Source: a virus
Taxonomy: Duplodnaviria > Heunggongvirae > Uroviricota > Caudoviricetes
Direction: 5' to 3' (one strand)
Length of the DNA stretch: 6,487 nucleotides
Virus record (IMG/VR): IMGVR_UViG_2917886563_000003
The translations under genes and the position numbers were made by a program. The notes under the pieces are model-generated. The model was not told where the DNA came from, ran no database searches, and was given only the letters and a program-made list of their open reading frames with translations. This document shows positions 1-6,487 of the stretch, piece after piece (the first letter of the stretch is position 1; each line of letters opens with the position of its first letter).

Positions 1-2
1 TG

Positions 3-361
<359 letters not shown>

Positions 362-370
362 CTCGATCAG

Positions 371-1429
371 ATGAAAGATGTACGGGAGAAGGCTACTAAA
401 TCTTATGATGAGGCTGAATATGTAGTTGATAAGAAAACTGGTAAAGGAGAATGGAAGGGCGGCGATAGCGGCATCAATACTTTAATGAATGAAGGATTCC
501 TAACTAAAAAGGATCTAAAAGACTTTGCTGATAATCCGGCTGGTCTGGTTAGTAAAGCAGTTCAGGGAATGGTAGCTAAAGGCTATTCAGATGCACAAAT
601 CGGTAGTCGTCTGGAAGATCTGGCTGATGATTTGATGCTCACCTCTAAATACTGGACACGCTCCGCTAAAGAAGTGGAACAATCAGCACGAGAACAACGA
701 GAATCAGGGCGCTGGGTAACGCAGGCACAACAGGAAAGCGTTATTAAATTCCGTGAACTGAATAATGCACTTAGTGGGCTTTCTGACTCACAAGGGATCG
801 CCTTTGTTGATGGCTTTATGAAATCTCTTGATCCGAAAGTGATTGAAGAGTTTAAAAAGAGCATGGTTGCAATGCTGCCAATGTTTACCAAATTAGGCGA
901 GGCTGTAGGCGGTCTACTTAATGCGATCATGAAAACTATCAACTGGTTGATGAAAAACGACGAGAAGACGGCAGCTATTCAGAAGAATTTAGGGGATGCA
1001 CCGCCACTATCTAACGAAGGAATGAAACAGAATCTTTCTAATCTCACTCCTGATCAATATAAAGGCGCTGGCACCGGAACAATTAAGCCAGATAACAGCA
1101 ATTCCCTGGTTAACACTATTAAAAGCTGGTTTATGCCAGAAGAAACGGTAGGTGGGGCGCAGGCTGTAAATCAATACAGTCTCGAAGGACAAAACATTGC
1201 AAATCTGAAACAGAGTGCAGCACAACAAGCTCTCAAGGCTCCTTCTTACACCTTTGCACCTGTTATTCACTTCAATCCAGAATTACAAGTAAATGCAGAA
1301 GTGCCGCTAACTATCGAATCAGACACCGGACGATTGAGCGAATTTATCGACTTCAAATCAAAGGCATCCTCCGCTGAGTTTAGCAAGCTATTAACGCTGG
1401 GTGTTATGTCAGGCGGGTCAACCTATTAA
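371..1429 (+). CDS. Hypothetical protein, probably a 5'-truncated gene fragment interrupted by the IS; possibly the C-terminal part of a phage tail tape-measure-like protein (weak)
   Basis: Long open frame ending TAA at 1427-1429. The frame is open back to 332, right through the IS terminus; the first ATG is at 371 with no recognisable Shine-Dalgarno upstream. The protein is rich in K/E/Q/A with likely helical stretches (e.g. LGEAVGGLLNAIMKTINWLMKN) and no catalytic motif I can name. The track's start at 347 is a TTG alternative. Confidence 0.6.
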   Translation: MKDVREKATKSYDEAEYVVDKKTGKGEWKGGDSGINTLMNEGFLTKKDLKDFADNPAGLVSKAVQGMVAKGYSDAQIGSRLEDLADDLMLTSKYWTRSAKEVEQSAREQRESGRWVTQAQQESVIKFRELNNALSGLSDSQGIAFVDGFMKSLDPKVIEEFKKSMVAMLPMFTKLGEAVGGLLNAIMKTINWLMKNDEKTAAIQKNLGDAPPLSNEGMKQNLSNLTPDQYKGAGTGTIKPDNSNSLVNTIKSWFMPEETVGGAQAVNQYSLEGQNIANLKQSAAQQALKAPSYTFAPVIHFNPELQVNAEVPLTIESDTGRLSEFIDFKSKASSAEFSKLLTLGVMSGGSTY

Positions 1430-1476
1430 TCATCGCTGTGGGGCTGTTTAGCCCCCTTAAATAAGGATTACAAATT

Positions 1477-2154
1477 ATGGCAATGGGTCCGTTAACCATT
1501 GGTCGCCCGACTGAGGCGAAAATCAACAGCACAAGCAACGATAGCAACGGTAGAACAACTAAAGGGGGTAACGGCTTTGCGATCATTGCCTCTAACCTCG
1601 GCAGTGGTGCAAATGCTGCTTACAATGACTACCAGGCATTATCATTTGATAGCGTGGAATCGACGAAAATTAGCAGAAATGCAGACGTTACAAGCTATGC
1701 TGTCGAATCAGGATCAGAAGTTAGTGATCATGTTCAAATACGGAATAACAAGTTCACATTACAGGGGCGTATCTCTGAAACCGTATTGAAGCTCAATCCC
1801 GATATGATTAAGAATGCGGGAATTAACGGCAATAGACGTATGCTTATGCTTGAATACCTAAATCAGTTGATGGACAGTCGCCAACCTTTCCTACTTGTCA
1901 CTGAGTTAAAAAATTATGACAACGTTGTGTTAGTGGGTATGGACTTCGAAGAAGAAGCAAGCGAAAGCCTATTGTTTACTCTTGATTTTGAGCAAATCCG
2001 TCTTGTCTCTAAAGCAACTACAAGCGCAATTGCGGTAAAAACAGCACCAAATAAATCTGTAGGAGGCCAGGTTAAAATGCAGGTAAATACAACAGAACAG
2101 AAAAATCAAAAAAGCCCAGGGCAAGACGTTGTAACGCCAGTATTTAAACAATAG
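1477..2154 (+). CDS. Hypothetical protein (225 aa), likely a phage structural/tail-associated protein; function not recognisable
   Basis: ATG at 1477 preceded by AAGGA at 1463-1467 (good RBS spacing). Starts 48 bp after the upstream gene on the same strand, ends TAG at 2152-2154 and is followed by a hairpin terminator. The S/T/N/G-rich composition suggests a beta-rich structural protein. Confidence 0.75.
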   Translation: MAMGPLTIGRPTEAKINSTSNDSNGRTTKGGNGFAIIASNLGSGANAAYNDYQALSFDSVESTKISRNADVTSYAVESGSEVSDHVQIRNNKFTLQGRISETVLKLNPDMIKNAGINGNRRMLMLEYLNQLMDSRQPFLLVTELKNYDNVVLVGMDFEEEASESLLFTLDFEQIRLVSKATTSAIAVKTAPNKSVGGQVKMQVNTTEQKNQKSPGQDVVTPVFKQ

Positions 2155-2234: not shown

Positions 2235-3506
2235 CTATAGCGTTGTTTTACGCCTTAAATTTGATTTTTTATTGATTGATAAGCCTTTCTCTATTTCAGG
2301 GTAGCGTAAAAGCTCAATATATTTTTTAAGCTCTACTGGAGAAGCTGCATTCTTGCTATATGTGCGGAATGTTTCTGTATTGCCGCGCTGATGGCCCAAA
2401 ATTAAGGCTATGCGGTCCTCTGGAATTTGATTTCGATCAAGAAGCTGTGCTACTCCGTGTCTCAGAGAATGAAACACTTTCCTTTCTGTTCCCTTTTCCC
2501 CTAAAGCCTTTCGTTTAGCTCTTGTAAATCGTTGTGTATGCCACGTAGAGCGTTTACCGTCAGCACGCTCTGTAATGCTGGCGTGATAGAACAAAAAGCC
2601 ATTGTGAGGCTTTTCACGAAGAGATAACACCAATGGAGTGATAAGGCTATGCACAGGCACAAGACGTGCCGCAGCTTTCGTTTTTCCCTGTGTGATTTCA
2701 AAACACAGCACACCTTCGATCTCTTTCACATCGTCTATTGTGAGACTTGCTATCTCGTTGATCCGCATCCCTGTATACATTCCGATCAGTGTTATATTTT
2801 GCATTTCTTCTTCATCAGCCAGCATTGAGAACACTTTTGCGAGTTCATCATTGCTAAAGGCTTCATAATTCACCTTGCTACTTTTAGCTTCAAGGCCGTG
2901 ACCTCGCCAAGGATTATCTTGTGGTGCATCGTGATAGCGGTTACGAGCAAGATCCCAGATCTGGGCTAATGCACTGATGTAGTTTTGTATTGTTTGTGGT
3001 GCTTTCTCATTTTTTAGGTCATCTAACCAGCTAGTAACAATAGTTCGGTTAACGTCACGAAGCTGAACATCGCGTTTATTCAGATGTTCTAAGAGCACTT
3101 CTACAGCCTTGTTTGTCTTTGATAGCGTGGTGAGTTTGCGCTTCTCGCTGAACTGGAGAATGTATTGATCACGCATCCTCAAGAGGGAAGGGCAACCAAT
3201 AGAAGAATCATTAAATGATTCAGATACTTGAAATACATATGTTCCAGCTTTCCGTAGTTCTGTAATAATTTGCTCGATCTTCGATGTTTTCTCACGTTGA
3301 GGCTTTAGCTTGTTACGTAGTTTTATCCATTCCAGCGCCACCGCATCACGGAACAACCGTGCTTCTCGAATATCTCTTGTACCCGTGCTCTTAACGTAGC
3401 TGCATCGCCCACCAAATAGATGACGCATATACTTAGGTATAGCGATCCTTACCAGATAGTTTCCGCAAGAATCTGAAATTAAATAGCGATCTCTCTTGAA
3501 ACTCAT
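2235..3506 (-). CDS. int: Site-specific tyrosine recombinase / phage-type integrase (423 aa)
   Basis: Minus-strand ORF with ATG at 3506-3504. The C-terminal catalytic domain has the tyrosine-recombinase signature: box I Arg (TGMRINEIASL), Lys in GKTKAAARLVPVH, box II HSLRHGVAQ, then LGHQRGNTETFRTYSKN carrying the nucleophile Tyr. The N-terminal region resembles an arm/core-binding SAM-like domain of P4-type integrases. Confidence 0.93.
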   Translation of the reverse strand: MSFKRDRYLISDSCGNYLVRIAIPKYMRHLFGGRCSYVKSTGTRDIREARLFRDAVALEWIKLRNKLKPQREKTSKIEQIITELRKAGTYVFQVSESFNDSSIGCPSLLRMRDQYILQFSEKRKLTTLSKTNKAVEVLLEHLNKRDVQLRDVNRTIVTSWLDDLKNEKAPQTIQNYISALAQIWDLARNRYHDAPQDNPWRGHGLEAKSSKVNYEAFSNDELAKVFSMLADEEEMQNITLIGMYTGMRINEIASLTIDDVKEIEGVLCFEITQGKTKAAARLVPVHSLITPLVLSLREKPHNGFLFYHASITERADGKRSTWHTQRFTRAKRKALGEKGTERKVFHSLRHGVAQLLDRNQIPEDRIALILGHQRGNTETFRTYSKNAASPVELKKYIELLRYPEIEKGLSINKKSNLRRKTTL

Positions 3507-3545
3507 ACAAACCCCGGCTATTTTGTCAGGGCTTTTGCACTTGAT

Positions 3546-3573
3546 AGTGTACAGTGTGAAGTGTCGATGTGTT
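3546..3573. repeat. Four tandem heptamers (AGTGTAC AGTGTGA AGTGTCG ATGTGTT) in the int upstream region
   Basis: Read directly from the sequence: three perfect AGTGT cores at 7-bp periodicity plus a degenerate fourth, 40-67 bp upstream of the int start codon and about 70 bp from the tRNA-like core. Confidence 0.5.
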
Positions 3574-3642
3574 GTTAGTTTTGCTTTTGATTCAAAGCAT
3601 TACAGGAGCTTGCTAGGCAAGCGAACGACCGTAGAAATACGT

Positions 3643-3669
3643 GCCGGTTCGAGTCCGGCCTTCGCACCA
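3643..3669 (+). other. tRNA 3'-end-like fragment (T-arm + acceptor 3' strand + CCA); putative att core or island junction, not a complete tRNA gene
   Basis: GCCGG-TTCGAGT-CCGGC forms a canonical T-stem/T-loop (GGTTCGAGTCC), followed by CTTCGCA-CCA. No complementary 5' acceptor strand, D-arm or anticodon arm can be folded from the ~90 nt upstream, so only the 3' part of a tRNA is present. It lies 137 bp upstream of int, on the opposite strand. Confidence 0.5.
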
Positions 3670-3682
3670 AAAGTATGTAAAT

Positions 3683-3707
3683 AGACCTCAACTGAGGTCT
3701 TTTTTTT
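3683..3707 (+). terminator. Rho-independent terminator immediately downstream of the tRNA-like 3' end
   Basis: Stem AGACCTC (3683-3689) / GAGGTCT (3694-3700) with loop AACT, followed by a run of seven T (3701-3707). Confidence 0.7.
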
Positions 3708-3974
3708 ATGCCTGAAATTCACGCCACACAAATCTTTTCCGCTGTTTTTTTCCAACTAACGTCAACCTGGTTCAATCCATATTAAATCCCTTAAGAATAC
3801 CGAACCAAGTATGTTTGCGCTTATCTATTAAGGATTCGGCTCTTTCAGAAAATCTAATCCATCCTCCAGGCACAATATTTATTGCGATCGTGCTCGCATC
3901 GTGGACAATGTTTAATCATAAGTAATATTTACATCAATGAAATCAATGATTTCTATTATGTCACGGAATGGAAA

Positions 3975-6197
3975 ATGGACAGCAATACATTGGGATTCAC
4001 TTCATACTGGCGCAACTCCTTAGCTGACGCCGAATCTGGTAAAGGAACGTTTTCACGTAAAGATATAGATTCATTCATTCGATGGATAAATATCACTGCA
4101 GGGCAGTTGGATGACGAGACTATTCGGGCATTTTTTGACGGTGAAGGGGAGTCGGTAAAAACCGTTGAAGTCGTGTTACGGCCCCAGGTGTGGAACCGCA
4201 TAGTAAAGCATGGCAAAGAGCAAATGGCAGGTGCCCCCGCAATTATCACGCCACTGGTTACCTCCGCTCTTCTGAATAGGGAAGGTTTTTTGTTTCCTGC
4301 TGCTTCAGCCACTATTCCCCGCGATCTGCTTGAACCTCTCCCTTCCGGTCATTTTTCTATTGGTGAGTTGGCTCAATATGACAAATACAAAACCACGCAT
4401 AGCACAGCCACCATTAATGAAGATGAACCAGAACATTACGAAGAAACTGACGAAGAGAAAGCGGAACGCCATGCCAGGTATCGTCAGCATTGGCAAAATT
4501 ATCTTCAACAGTCAGATAACCTTTTAAGAAACGTCGCTGGAAATTGGGTCGCTACATCTGAGCCATACGAACGGGCTGGATACGGTTATATTGTTAAAGC
4601 TAGCCAGCATGTAGGGGCCAGCGTTCATATCCTGCCTATGTATGACCATCTTCTGATGAGTCAGGTTAAGGTTCCGCTATTAACGCGTTTTGCCTCAAAC
4701 GAAATGGCTCCAGTGGAGCCACTTCTCGCTAAGAATGCGATGTTCTGCGAACGTCTGGGGCATTCCGGCGATAAGTTTCCGCTGGCAGTGGCGCAGCGCG
4801 ATGCCCTGAGCCATTATCTGACTCAACAGCAGGGTGATATGCTCGCTGTCAACGGTCCTCCGGGAACGGGTAAAACTACGCTGGTGCTTTCTATTATTGC
4901 CACCGAATGGACAAGAGCCGCACTTAATCAAACTGAACCTCCTGTAATTATTGCCACATCGACTAACAATCAGGCCGTCACCAATATTATTGAAGCCTTT
5001 GGAAAAGATTTCTCTACTGGTTTTGGCGTAATGTCTGGGCGTTGGTTGCCGGAGGTAATAAGCTATGGCGCTTATTTTCCGTCTAAAAGCCGTCAGGTTG
5101 AGGCAGCGAAGAAATACCAGACTGAAGATTTTTTTAACCGCGTTGAATCCCAGGAATATCTGGAAAAAGCCCGGGCCTTTTACCTTGAAAAAGCGGAGGC
5201 GGCGTTTGGAGCTGGAGAGTGCAATTCGCCAGAGCATGTAGTGACGCTTTTGCATGAACGTTTAACTTCACAGTTTATGCAACTTCAGCAAATCGAACCC
5301 GCATGGCGCAGACTCAATGATATCCGCCATGAACAGCGAGTCATCAGTGAGAATCTCGACCAGTATCTTCAGGACAAAAACACACTTCTTCTCAATATTG
5401 GTAATGAAATTTCACTTTTGGCCAGAGGTAAAAAGCAGTGGCAGCAATACCGTGCCGATGAGTCGCTTATGTATGCATTTTTGTCATGGCTCCCTGCTGT
5501 TCGTGCTAAACGCCATTACCAGATTAACCTCTTCCTGGACTCTACGTTCGGCACAAGAATGACAGCGTTCCAGGGAAATTGTCCCGAAGATATTGATAAA
5601 TTTATCGATAGTTTGATCGCTAAAGCACAACAAGAGCAGGCGGTGTGCCAACAGAATATCAACTTTGCGCAGGACATAGCCCGAAGCGAAATGGAAGCAG
5701 CAAAACAATGGCGCGGGTTGACTTATGCTCTGGGCTACAGGGGAGACGATGAGCTGAACCTCGCCGGAGCGGACGAGCTTGCCGATACTCAGATTCGTTT
5801 TCCAGCGTTCTTGTTAGCGACTCATTATTGGGAAGGTCGCTGGCTGATGGATATGGCGGCAATCGATAACCTGCAAAAAGAAAAAGGAATTACCGGGACA
5901 ACTATCGCCGAGGCTCGTTGGCTAAGAAGAATGAAACTTACTCCTTGTGTGGTAATGACCTGCTACATGTTGCCTTACCATATGAACAGGAGAAAATCTT
6001 TTGGTGGGGACAGAACATCGGATAATAATTATTTATATAACTTTGCCGATTTACTGATTGTCGATGAAGCAGGGCAGGTACTCCCGGAGGTTGCTGCGGC
6101 CTCTTTTGCATTGGCGAAGAAAGCACTGGTGATTGGCGATACGGAGCAAATAGCTCCAATCTGGAATGATGTAGCCCCCAGAAACACCGGACAGTAG
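3975..6197 (+). CDS. Large P-loop NTPase with SF1B (Upf1/Dna2/RecD-like) helicase motifs I, Ia, II and III and an uncharacterised N-terminal region; apparently 3'-truncated by the IS2-like insertion (740 aa as read)
   Basis: Open frame from 3882 (TTG) or 3975 (first ATG, preferred) to TAG at 6195-6197. Walker A GPPGTGKTT at 4854-4880; motif Ia-like PPVIIATSTNNQAVTNIIEAF; Walker B/motif II LLIVDEAGQ (DEAGQ at 6063-6077); motif III VIGDTEQIAPIW at 6129-6164. The ORF stops 10 codons after motif III with no motifs IV-VI, and the stop lies within or at the edge of the IS2-like left terminus. Confidence 0.8.
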   Translation: MDSNTLGFTSYWRNSLADAESGKGTFSRKDIDSFIRWINITAGQLDDETIRAFFDGEGESVKTVEVVLRPQVWNRIVKHGKEQMAGAPAIITPLVTSALLNREGFLFPAASATIPRDLLEPLPSGHFSIGELAQYDKYKTTHSTATINEDEPEHYEETDEEKAERHARYRQHWQNYLQQSDNLLRNVAGNWVATSEPYERAGYGYIVKASQHVGASVHILPMYDHLLMSQVKVPLLTRFASNEMAPVEPLLAKNAMFCERLGHSGDKFPLAVAQRDALSHYLTQQQGDMLAVNGPPGTGKTTLVLSIIATEWTRAALNQTEPPVIIATSTNNQAVTNIIEAFGKDFSTGFGVMSGRWLPEVISYGAYFPSKSRQVEAAKKYQTEDFFNRVESQEYLEKARAFYLEKAEAAFGAGECNSPEHVVTLLHERLTSQFMQLQQIEPAWRRLNDIRHEQRVISENLDQYLQDKNTLLLNIGNEISLLARGKKQWQQYRADESLMYAFLSWLPAVRAKRHYQINLFLDSTFGTRMTAFQGNCPEDIDKFIDSLIAKAQQEQAVCQQNINFAQDIARSEMEAAKQWRGLTYALGYRGDDELNLAGADELADTQIRFPAFLLATHYWEGRWLMDMAAIDNLQKEKGITGTTIAEARWLRRMKLTPCVVMTCYMLPYHMNRRKSFGGDRTSDNNYLYNFADLLIVDEAGQVLPEVAAASFALAKKALVIGDTEQIAPIWNDVAPRNTGQ

Positions 6198-6487
6198 CTG
6201 TATCTCCAGATAAGAGATAGGCTTGAATATATGTCTAACACTAACGCCAATTTTGAGATGACCGGGATCCTGTTAGGGCAAGAAGTCCGTAAACGTAAAA
6301 CTCCTCAGGAGAAAATCGCCATTATCCAGCAGAACGATGGAGCCGGGTATGAATGTCTCCCATGTCGCCCGCCTGCATGGTATCCAGCCCAGCCTGCTGT
6401 TTAAATGGAAGAAGCAATATCAGGAAGGCAGCCTCACCGCCGTTGCGGCCGGAGAGGAAGTCGTTCCTGCTTCTGAGCTTACAGCTG
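6172..6487 (+). mobile_element. Left-hand portion of an IS3-family, IS2-group insertion sequence; continues beyond the right window edge
   Basis: The region 6172-6230 contains TAGCCCCCAG...CTGTATCTCCAGATAAG, resembling the IS2 left terminal repeat as recalled (TAGACTGGCCCCCTGAATCTCCAGACAA). It is followed by an orfA-like reading frame whose product aligns with IS2 InsC. The left boundary is uncertain, somewhere in 6167-6195. Confidence 0.75.
6258..6487 (+). pseudogene. IS2-like transposase OrfA (HTH DNA-binding protein), apparently frameshifted; 3' end outside the window
   Basis: From ATG 6258 (or 6231) the frame reads [26 protein letters not shown], then runs into [22 protein letters not shown] (stop 6402-6404). 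From 6337 the +1 frame reads [50 protein letters not shown] to the window end. Both halves match IS2 InsC as recalled ([65 protein letters not shown]), implying a 1-nt insertion near 6336-6340 (GATGGAG). Confidence 0.65.

What the first reader, a model, noticed from the sequence alone, without database searches (positions are those of the whole stretch)
3975..6197. Unrecognised N-terminal domain fused to an SF1B helicase core, cut off right after motif III by an IS insertion
The protein has SF1B helicase motifs in the right order: Walker A GPPGTGKTT, motif Ia ATSTNNQAV, motif II DEAGQ and motif III GDTEQ. They are preceded by about 290 residues in which I recognise no known domain. The frame terminates 10 codons after motif III, exactly where IS2-like terminal sequence starts, so motifs IV-VI (the second RecA-like domain) are missing. 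The gene lies beside an integrase and att-like site and between two IS elements, which is typical accessory or defence-island context; single-protein or two-gene anti-phage systems built on Upf1-like helicases exist (for example Mokosh and Nhi), but this N-terminal region does not obviously match any that I can recall. It may therefore be a member of an undescribed helicase-based accessory or defence family, inactivated in this copy.
Basis: partly seen in the sequence, partly recalled or inferred. Interest (0 to 1): 0.75.

Follow-up and report, generated by a model that had tools for sequence, protein, structure and literature searches.

The report
IS-truncated Mokosh type II gene (yjhR)
This is the front 62% of yjhR, the E. 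coli gene for the known single-protein anti-phage system Mokosh type II (MkoC), cut by an insertion sequence that removed half the helicase motor and the whole nuclease, so it is an ordinary dead copy of a described defence gene.

Summary
Window 3975-6197 (+) encodes 740 aa with Walker A (294-302), motif Ia (327-335), motif II DEAGQ (697-701) and motif III GDTEQ (721-725). Native sequence stops at nt 6167 (codon N731), where the inverted repeat of an IS2-like IS3-family element begins. Nine IS-encoded codons and a stop follow.

The interpretation of an undescribed family does not hold. The protein matches the PADLOC MkoC model (Mokosh type II) at E=1e-249 over profile positions 1-711 of 1136. 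It is 99% identical to E. coli proteins annotated "helicase YjhR" (1171 aa, 132 kDa). It is 66% identical, N-terminal domain included, to the first 398 residues available of the MkoC that Millman et al. 2022 list as verified. Intact relatives are about 1171 aa and continue into the second RecA domain (AAA_12, 795-969) and a PLD nuclease (1028-1141, HSKIVIRD at 1114).

The roughly 270-residue N-terminal domain is a constant part of this family. It has no Pfam hit, and a confident AlphaFold2 model (pLDDT 86) has no significant PDB or viral fold match. That is a real gap in knowledge, but it concerns the family, not this locus.

Verdict: already known, inactivated copy, low interest.

The parts
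1..361 (+). 3' end of an IS3-family insertion sequence. The C-terminus of its transposase OrfB is readable at 147-353, and the element ends at ...ACTACA, nt 361.
   Evidence: Pfam rve_2/rve_3. NCBIfam transpos_IS3, profile positions 317-368 of 369. 99.7% identical to annotated IS3-family transposase genes in E. coli. Prophage homology begins at 362-374.
362..2154 (+). Prophage tail-gene remnant. It comprises the 3' part of a gene truncated by the left IS (ORF 347-1429; full length is 614 aa in L004) and a Dit-like baseplate protein (1477-2154).
   Evidence: 99% identical to L004 8001-11345. Pfam Dit_like 2.4e-27.
2235..3506 (-). Tyrosine site-specific integrase (423 aa) of the element integrated at leuX.
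   Evidence: Pfam Phage_integrase 1.2e-16, DUF6538 and Phage_int_SAM_5. Annotated as site-specific integrase in E. coli.
3628..3669 (+). 3' fragment of tRNA-Leu (leuX), serving as an att-site repeat. It is followed by a hairpin and T-run at about 3683-3707.
   Evidence: Window 3628-3721 matches annotated tRNA-Leu and its downstream flank in nearly all E. coli genomes. ARAGORN and Rfam find no complete tRNA. Prophage-side homology ends at 3718 and yjhR-side homology starts at 3647/3648, so about 70 bp are shared by both.
3648..3974 (+). Conserved upstream region of yjhR (presumed promoter and leader; not tested), intact in this copy.
   Evidence: Collinear with L001 (98.4%) and L002 (94.8%) upstream of intact yjhR.
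3975..6167 (+). Native 5' part of yjhR/mkoC, codons 1-731 of 1171. It has no internal stop or frameshift and 7 amino-acid differences from P0001.
   Evidence: Megablast to 13 E. coli genomes annotated 'helicase YjhR' at 94-99% identity, with the match ending at query base 2193. PADLOC MkoC E=1.1e-249. Comparison with P0001.
3975..4790 (+). Family-specific N-terminal domain (residues 1 to about 272), with conserved YWRNSLADAE and IPRDLLEPL motifs. It has no Pfam family and no PDB fold match.
4854..4880 (+). Walker A / motif I, GPPGTGKTT (residues 294-302).
   Evidence: Translation. Pfam AAA_11 273-344.
4953..4979 (+). Motif Ia, ATSTNNQAV (residues 327-335).
   Evidence: Translation. Nearly invariant in A1.
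4980..6062 (+). Insertion of about 360 residues in RecA1 between motifs Ia and II. It sits where Upf1-like helicases carry accessory domains 1B/1C; that placement is my inference and was not modelled.
   Evidence: Motif positions. Pfam AAA_11 matches in two separate stretches. Millman et al. describe Upf1-like accessory domains for MkoA.
6063..6077 (+). Motif II / Walker B, DEAGQ (residues 697-701).
   Evidence: Translation.
6135..6149 (+). Motif III, GDTEQ (residues 721-725). This is the last helicase motif retained.
   Evidence: Translation.
6168..6197 (+). IS-encoded tail of the truncated ORF: 9 codons (DVAPRNTGQ) plus the TAG stop.
   Evidence: Junction alignment of the window against L001, L002 and L005.
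6167..6487 (+). Left end of an IS2-like IS3-family insertion sequence (terminal repeat TGATGTAGCCCCC...). Its orfA starts at 6231 and is frameshifted here by an extra A near 6335.
   Evidence: 98.1% identical to annotated IS3-family transposase genes in 149 E. coli genomes. Alignment with L005. The orfA of the intact copy hits 'IS2 repressor TnpA' at 160.5 bits, below the 229 cut-off, so it is IS2-like and not IS2.

Best explanation
Window 3975-6197 is a pseudogene: the first 731 of 1171 codons of yjhR, which encodes MkoC, the single protein of the Mokosh type II anti-phage system.

Shown here or in the cited papers: the intact protein (132 kDa) has four parts in order. First comes a family-specific N-terminal domain of about 270 residues. 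Next comes an Upf1-like SF1B helicase whose first RecA domain carries an insertion of about 360 residues. The second RecA domain with motifs IV-VI follows. Last is a C-terminal PLD-family nuclease with one HxK(x)4D motif. Millman et al. 2022 report that Mokosh systems defend E. coli against phages, and that mutations in the helicase ATP-binding site or in the PLD active site abolish defence.

Shown here: an IS2-like IS3-family element inserted after codon 731, six codons past motif III. This leaves the upstream region, the N-terminal domain and RecA1 intact, and separates the second RecA domain and the nuclease from the rest.

Inferred: an SF1 motor needs both RecA domains to hydrolyse ATP, because the nucleotide cleft lies between them. 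The effector nuclease is also gone. So this copy cannot defend. At most it makes an inert 84-kDa fragment. The lack of any other lesion suggests the insertion is recent.
For: - PADLOC MkoC scores E=1.1e-249, 829.7 bits, with protein 1-731 on profile 1-711 of 1136.
- Intact E. coli YjhR (L001 9001-12516, 1171 aa) covers MkoC 1-1135 of 1136 at 1471.6 bits. It carries Pfam AAA_11, AAA_12 (795-969) and PLDc_2 (1028-1141) and the motif HSKIVIRD at 1114.
- The window is 94-99% identical at the DNA level to annotated yjhR in 13 E. coli genomes, and the match ends at window nt 6167.
- 118 of the 120 best homologues are 1170-1180 aa. Apart from P0032 (1021 aa) and P0049 (860 aa), all listed homologues carry AAA_11, AAA_12 and PLDc_2.
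- The window protein is 66% identical over the first 398 residues available of the MkoC that Millman et al. list as verified (IMG 2586378093, 1171 aa).
- Cury et al. 2022 identify YjhR as a fused Mokosh.
- Millman et al. 2022 give the architecture and the loss of defence in ATP-site and PLD-site mutants.
- Mokosh type II is a 132-kDa monomer by mass photometry, and YjhR computes to 132.0 kDa.
- The IS is identified.
- The native part has no stops and only 7 substitutions relative to P0001.
Against: - Nothing contradicts the identification.
- The other IS junction and the displaced 3' part of the gene are outside the window and could not be found. A junction scan of genome contigs gave 0 hits, and the only other contig with this protein (Logan SRR8835208) breaks 27 nt into the IS. 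A deletion accompanying the insertion therefore cannot be told apart from a simple insertion.
- No expression or phenotype data exist for this copy.
- The verified MkoC is 66% identical, not identical, so defence activity of the yjhR allele itself is inferred from family membership.
Confidence: 0.95

Rival explanations
1. It belongs to an undescribed helicase-based defence or accessory family with a novel N-terminal domain.
For: There is no Pfam hit in residues 1 to about 270. The N-terminal domain has no structural match in the PDB or BFVD.
Against: The whole retained protein, N-terminal domain included, aligns collinearly to the PADLOC MkoC profile at E=1e-249. The verified MkoC of Millman et al. 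has the same N-terminal domain at 66% identity. The gene already has a name, yjhR, and a published Mokosh assignment.
Confidence: 0.02
2. It is a housekeeping SF1 helicase, such as a RecD or RecD2 paralogue, that happens to lie in an island.
For: There are weak P-loop-level hits to recD (19.8 bits) and RecD2 (16.8 bits).
Against: Those scores are far below the curated cut-offs of 310 and 500 bits. The 5' part of the gene is present in only 13 of 5426 complete E. coli genomes, and the gene is a 3' remnant in K-12, so it is not a core function. The best PDB sequence relatives are Upf1-like helicases: IGHMBP2, DNA2, ZNFX1 and Nam7. Intact copies carry a fused PLD nuclease.
Confidence: 0.01
3. The truncated 740-aa product (N-terminal domain plus RecA1 plus the insertion) is expressed and keeps some activity, for example as a decoy, a nucleic-acid binder or a dominant-negative partner of another Mokosh protein.
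For: The upstream region and the reading frame are intact up to the IS. The ORF ends at a clean in-frame stop inside the IS.
Against: None of the 120 best homologues ends near residue 731-740. The two short ones (860 and 1021 aa) come from contigs of 4.4 and 8 kb. Both ATP-site and PLD-site integrity are required for Mokosh defence. An SF1 helicase lacking RecA2 has no complete ATPase site (established knowledge). Mokosh type II behaves as a monomer, which argues against a dominant-negative role.
Confidence: 0.03
4. The yjhR-IS junction is an assembly chimera and not a real insertion.
For: The window begins and ends inside IS elements, as short-read contigs bounded by repeats do.
Against: The junction falls exactly at the IS terminal repeat TGATGTAGCCCCC, base for base as in an independent E. 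coli copy. A Logan assembly of SRR8835208 gives the same 740-aa product and 27 nt of the IS. A chimera formed inside a repeat would not create a junction between unique sequence and an IS terminus.
Confidence: 0.02

Closest known systems
Mokosh type II, MkoC (Millman et al. 2022; PADLOC PDLC03924), verified example IMG 2586378093 from E. coli 5-366-08_S1_C1
   Same: The N-terminal domain, Walker A, motif Ia, the RecA1 insertion and motifs II-III are the same and in the same order. The window protein is 66% identical over the 398 residues that could be compared. The intact allele has the same total length, 1171 aa, and covers the whole profile.
   Different: This copy lacks residues 732-1171, that is RecA2 with motifs IV-VI and the PLD nuclease, because of an IS insertion. 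It is a different allele of the family from the verified protein.
E. coli yjhR (RefSeq 'helicase YjhR'; K-12 pseudogene in the leuX-fimB region)
   Same: It is the same gene: 99% DNA identity to intact yjhR in 6 genomes. It has the same conserved upstream region, which begins inside the leuX att fragment.
   Different: K-12 and 1730 of 5426 E. coli genomes keep only the 3' part, from about nt 2291, and in K-12 that part is frameshifted. This window keeps the complementary 5' part, broken at nt 2193, so it is an independent inactivation.
Mokosh type I (MkoA helicase-STK plus MkoB PLD nuclease)
   Same: The helicase is Upf1-like. PADLOC MkoA hits the helicase segments at 1.7e-14 here and 9.3e-34 for the intact protein. 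MkoB hits the C-terminal PLD domain of intact YjhR at 4.2e-15.
   Different: Type I has two genes, and its helicase gene carries a serine-threonine kinase domain. The MkoA profiles do not align to the N-terminal 270 residues of YjhR.
Eukaryotic Upf1-like SF1B helicases (Upf1/Nam7, IGHMBP2, DNA2, ZNFX1, MOV10L1) and the PLD6/Zucchini nuclease
   Same: The RecA-core motifs are shared. These are the best sequence matches in the PDB. Cury et al. report structural similarity of YjhR to MOV10L1 (TM 0.74) and PLD6 (TM 0.63).
   Different: Sequence similarity is very low (E 2e-4 to 8e-3). The accessory domains differ, and no eukaryotic relative of the N-terminal domain was found.

Membership tests
Mokosh type II (MkoC) | Significant, collinear match to the MkoC profile HMM | tested here: met
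   PADLOC PDLC03924 scores E=1.1e-249, 829.7 bits, with protein 1-731 on profile 1-711 of 1136. The intact orthologue covers 1-1135 of 1136 at 1471.6 bits.
Mokosh type II (MkoC) | Upf1-like / COG1112 SF1 helicase with both RecA domains (motifs I-VI) | tested here: not met
   The window copy has only motifs I, Ia, II and III. AAA_12 (RecA2, 795-969) is present in intact YjhR but lies beyond the IS break. The gene lineage meets this feature; this copy does not.
Mokosh type II (MkoC) | C-terminal PLD-family nuclease with an HxK(x)4D motif fused in the same polypeptide | tested here: not met
   There is no HxK(x)4D motif in the 731 native residues. Intact YjhR has PLDc_2 at 1028-1141 and HSKIVIRD at 1114. 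The domain was lost here through the IS insertion.
Mokosh type II (MkoC) | Homology to an experimentally verified defensive MkoC | tested here: met
   66% identity and 79% positives over the first 398 residues available of IMG 2586378093, which is marked 'v' (read here as verified) in Millman et al. supplementary file 11.
Mokosh type II (MkoC) | Protection against phage infection | not testable with these tools
   This needs plaque assays. It is expected to be negative for this truncated copy, because ATP-site and PLD-site mutants lose defence.
E. coli yjhR locus | Near-identical DNA and a conserved position downstream of a leuX att fragment in the leuX-nanS-fimB region | tested here: met
   94-99% identity to annotated yjhR. 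Upstream homology starts at 3647/3648 inside the leuX fragment. Intact loci lie next to nanS/nanM/nanC/fimB. The downstream side is not visible in the window.
RecD / RecD2 housekeeping SF1B helicases | Score above the curated NCBIfam cut-off | tested here: not met
   TIGR01447 scores 19.8 bits against a cut-off of 310, and TIGR01448 scores 16.8 against 500.
Nhi / Hhe / PLuB helicase defence proteins | Profile match beyond the P-loop or motif II segment | tested here: not met
   Nhi scores E 0.0017 over 40 residues and Hhe 8e-4 over 37 residues. PLuB and Hhe in NCBIfam score 27.7 and 25.5 bits against cut-offs of 999 and 2000.

The most novel reading that the evidence does not exclude
The roughly 270-residue N-terminal domain shared by all MkoC proteins (conserved YWRNSLADAE and IPRDLLEPL motifs; a mixed alpha/beta fold with a 30-residue helix in a pLDDT-86 model) may be a previously undescribed fold. 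It could act as the sensor or regulator that decides when the helicase-nuclease fires. The domain is intact in this window and would be a convenient entry point for working out how Mokosh type II recognises infection. This concerns the family as a whole, not anything peculiar to this locus.
Probability: 0.35. Interest if true: 0.4.

Novelty: already known. Interest (0 to 1): 0.12.

Why it matters
It matters little as a discovery. The gene is named, its family is in PADLOC and DefenseFinder, and a close relative has been verified as an anti-phage system. Three minor points are of use.

1. This is a clean example of defence-gene decay by IS insertion in the leuX-fimB hotspot. In 5426 complete E. 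coli genomes, the 5' part of yjhR occurs in only 13, while 1730 keep the 3' part.
2. Annotation pipelines should mark this ORF as a pseudogene and not as a 740-aa helicase.
3. The N-terminal domain of MkoC remains without a Pfam family or a structural relative, which is a real open question for the mechanism of Mokosh type II.

Tried and rejected
- A scan of genome contigs with the 51-nt yjhR/IS junction, meant to find the source genome and the displaced 3' part, gave 0 hits.
- The look-up of encoding contigs with the 740-aa product returned only one 2.6-kb Logan contig that breaks inside the IS, so it gave no further context.
- The first AlphaFold2 run of residues 1-290, using only close homologues (at least 63% identical), gave pLDDT 56.5 and was discarded. 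A second run with 70 sequences including distant representatives gave pLDDT 86.1.
- A sequence search of the PDB with full-length YjhR gave only weak Upf1-like core hits, so no solved MkoC turned up by sequence.
- Rfam and ARAGORN found no complete RNA gene in the window.
- RecD, Nhi, Hhe and PLuB membership were considered and rejected on score.
Full report
**1. What is in the sequence**

The window has an ORF at 3882-6197 (+). From the ATG at 3975, which is the start used for annotated orthologues, it encodes 740 aa.

| Motif | Sequence | Residues |
|---|---|---|
| Walker A | GPPGTGKTT | 294-302 |
| Ia | ATSTNNQAV | 327-335 |
| II | DEAGQ | 697-701 |
| III | GDTEQ | 721-725 |

Pfam finds AAA_11 (2.4e-14), AAA_30 and AAA_19 from residue about 270 onwards, and nothing in the first 270 residues. 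Motifs Ia and II are about 360 residues apart. That is a large insertion in the first RecA domain, at the place where Upf1-like helicases carry accessory domains.

**2. The break**

Megablast of 3975-6170 against 5426 complete E. coli genomes finds 13 chromosomes, all annotated "yjhR: helicase YjhR", at 94-99% identity. Every match stops at query base 2193, which is window nt 6167. Side-by-side reading shows native ...GGCGATACGGAGCAAATAGCTCCAATCTGGAAT followed in intact genes by TGTCTACCCGT... In the window it is followed by GATGTAGCCCCCAGAAACACCGGACAG....

That second sequence is the terminal repeat of an IS3-family element found in 149 E. coli genomes. It aligns base for base from TGATGTAGCCCCC with a copy in strain ABWA45. 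The orfA of that intact copy resembles the IS2 repressor TnpA at 160.5 bits, below the 229-bit cut-off, so the element is IS2-like and not IS2.

The native protein therefore ends at N731, six codons after motif III. Nine IS-encoded codons (DVAPRNTGQ) and a stop follow. The 731 native codons have no stop or frameshift and differ from the closest full-length protein, P0001, at 7 positions. The IS is the only lesion seen.

**3. What the gene is**

The PADLOC library gives MkoC (PDLC03924), the single protein of Mokosh type II, at E=1.1e-249 and 829.7 bits. Protein residues 1-731 align to profile positions 1-711 of 1136, so the match is collinear from the first residue and includes the "unrecognised" N-terminal region.

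The intact E. coli orthologue (L001 9001-12516, 1171 aa) covers the profile 1-1135 of 1136 at 1471.6 bits. It carries these features:

- Pfam AAA_11
- AAA_12 at residues 795-969
- PLDc_2 at residues 1028-1141
- a PLD active-site match at 1110-1134
- the motif HSKIVIRD (HxK(x)4D) at 1114

Of the 120 best homologues among 5.8 billion protein clusters, 118 are 1170-1180 aa. The two shorter ones (860 and 1021 aa) come from contigs of 4.4 and 8 kb, and all the others listed carry AAA_11, AAA_12 and PLDc_2. None ends near residue 731-740.

Millman et al. 2022 (bioRxiv 10.1101/2022.05.11.491447) define type II Mokosh as a single gene with an Upf1-like RNA helicase followed by a PLD nuclease. They report that ATP-site and PLD-site mutations abolish defence. 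Their supplementary table lists a type II system marked 'v' (which I read as verified) from E. coli 5-366-08_S1_C1, whose MkoC is IMG 2586378093, 1171 aa. Its first 399 residues are held in the supplement, and the window protein is 66% identical (79% positives) to them. That stretch covers the entire N-terminal domain.

Cury et al. [quoted passage not shown] A 2025 preprint (10.1101/2025.07.10.664194) reports Mokosh type II as a 132-kDa monomer that protected only against an ssDNA phage in its panel. YjhR computes to 132.0 kDa.

**4. What the IS removed and what follows**

Residues 732-1171 are missing from this reading frame. They comprise the second RecA domain (motifs IV-VI) and the PLD nuclease.

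It is established knowledge that the ATP site of SF1 helicases lies between the two RecA domains. Both the ATP site and the PLD site are needed for Mokosh defence. I infer that this copy is non-functional for defence.

Whether the 3' part survives beyond the IS could not be determined. The window ends 320 nt into the IS. A scan of the species-representative genome collection with the junction found nothing. The only other contig encoding this exact product (Logan SRR8835208) stops 27 nt into the IS.

**5. Context**

- **Left of the gene.** A 42-nt 3' fragment of tRNA-Leu (leuX) lies at about 3628-3669, followed by a hairpin and T-run. No complete tRNA is detected.
- **Further left.** There is a tyrosine integrase (2235-3506, -), a Dit-like baseplate gene (1477-2154), and the 3' part of a tail gene cut by a second IS3-family element that ends at nt 361.
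- **The att repeat.** Prophage-side homology ends at 3718 and yjhR-side homology starts at 3647/3648. Both sides therefore share about 70 bp derived from leuX, as expected of an att repeat between tandem elements at leuX.
- **Neighbours in intact loci.** yjhR sits between leuX-linked mobile DNA and nanS/nanM/nanC/fimB. In one strain it is next to DNA methylases, a phosphorothioate-dependent restriction endonuclease and an HNH endonuclease. In another it is next to a P4-like satellite and a reverse-transcriptase gene.

**6. Population picture**

The 5' part of yjhR occurs in 13 of 5426 complete E. coli genomes. The 3' part occurs in 1730, mostly starting at about nt 2291 of the gene. K-12 is of this type, and its copy is annotated as frameshifted and missing the N-terminus. 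The window is therefore an independent inactivation that leaves the complementary part. It was broken at nt 2193 by an IS.

**7. The N-terminal domain**

- phmmer of residues 1-272 against 1.84 billion cluster representatives finds only 229 proteins at E of 1e-3 or better. The full-length hits are about 1120-1280 aa with the domain at the extreme N-terminus.
- Of 8 diverse hits (24-41% identity), 6 have AAA_11 + AAA_12 + PLDc_2. Two have helicase domains without a PLDc_2 hit, and one has only AAA_12.
- Across the 70-sequence alignment (25-99% identical to the window protein) the conserved positions include Y11 W12 R13, D18, H79, G104, R116 D117, P121, H263 and Q274 R275.
- An AlphaFold2 model built with that alignment is confident (pLDDT 86.1, pTM 0.73). 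It shows a mixed alpha/beta domain with a 30-residue helix at 159-188.
- The AlphaFold DB library was not available.

The domain is thus a constant, family-specific and structurally unassigned part of a known protein. Its role as a sensor or regulator is my speculation.

**8. Rivals**

- **A RecD-type housekeeping helicase.** Excluded by scores far below cut-off, by the rarity of the gene, and by the fused nuclease.
- **Nhi, Hhe or PLuB.** These match only over 37-40 residues around the P-loop or motif II.
- **An assembly chimera.** Unlikely, because the junction is exactly at the IS terminus.
- **Residual function of the fragment.** This cannot be excluded by computation, but it has no support.

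**9. Verdict**

This is an IS-disrupted copy of yjhR/mkoC, Mokosh type II. It is already known and of low interest.

Noticed in passing
window 6231-6404 (around nt 6335): The orfA of the IS2-like element has one extra A (CAGCAGAACG against CAGCAG-ACG in the E. coli ABWA45 copy). This shifts the frame after about 35 codons, so this IS copy may itself be defective, or the base is a sequencing error.
   Followed up: partly
L005 2484-2500 and about 3825-3840 (E. coli ABWA45): The intact copy of the same IS is flanked by a 16-bp direct repeat, TCTTAATGCCAGAAGT. That is much longer than the 3-5 bp target duplications usual for IS3-family elements. It is unexplained.
   Followed up: no
window 1-361 and 6167-6487: The window starts inside one IS3-family element and ends inside another. 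This is the pattern of a whole short-read contig bounded by repeats. An independent Logan contig (L003, SRR8835208) breaks 27 nt into the right-hand IS.
   Followed up: partly
window 347-1429: The left IS has truncated a prophage tail gene. The full-length homologue in L004 (7212-9056) is 614 aa, and only its 3' part remains here. So both flanks of the integrase region show IS-mediated decay.
   Followed up: partly
window 3647-3718; L001 8685 onwards; L002 8676 onwards: A stretch of about 70 bp derived from the leuX 3' end and its terminator is shared by the prophage end and by the region upstream of every yjhR copy examined. yjhR therefore always sits directly behind an att repeat of leuX-integrating elements.
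   Followed up: partly
P0139 (1144 aa), P0196 (1121 aa), P0261 (1179 aa): These distant proteins carry the MkoC N-terminal domain and helicase domains but have no PLDc_2 hit. They may be Mokosh variants with a different or separate effector.
   Followed up: no
L006 (E. coli K-12) 2985-4225: K-12 yjhR is the complementary 3' remnant (frameshifted, N-terminus missing). The 3' part of the gene is present in 1730 of 5426 E. coli genomes, against 13 that have the 5' part.
   Followed up: yes
L001 1019-4854 and 12827-14486; L002 1-8326: Intact yjhR loci lie beside other defence-type genes: two DNA methylases, a phosphorothioated-DNA-binding restriction endonuclease and an HNH endonuclease in one strain, and a P4-like satellite with a reverse-transcriptase gene in another.
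   Followed up: no
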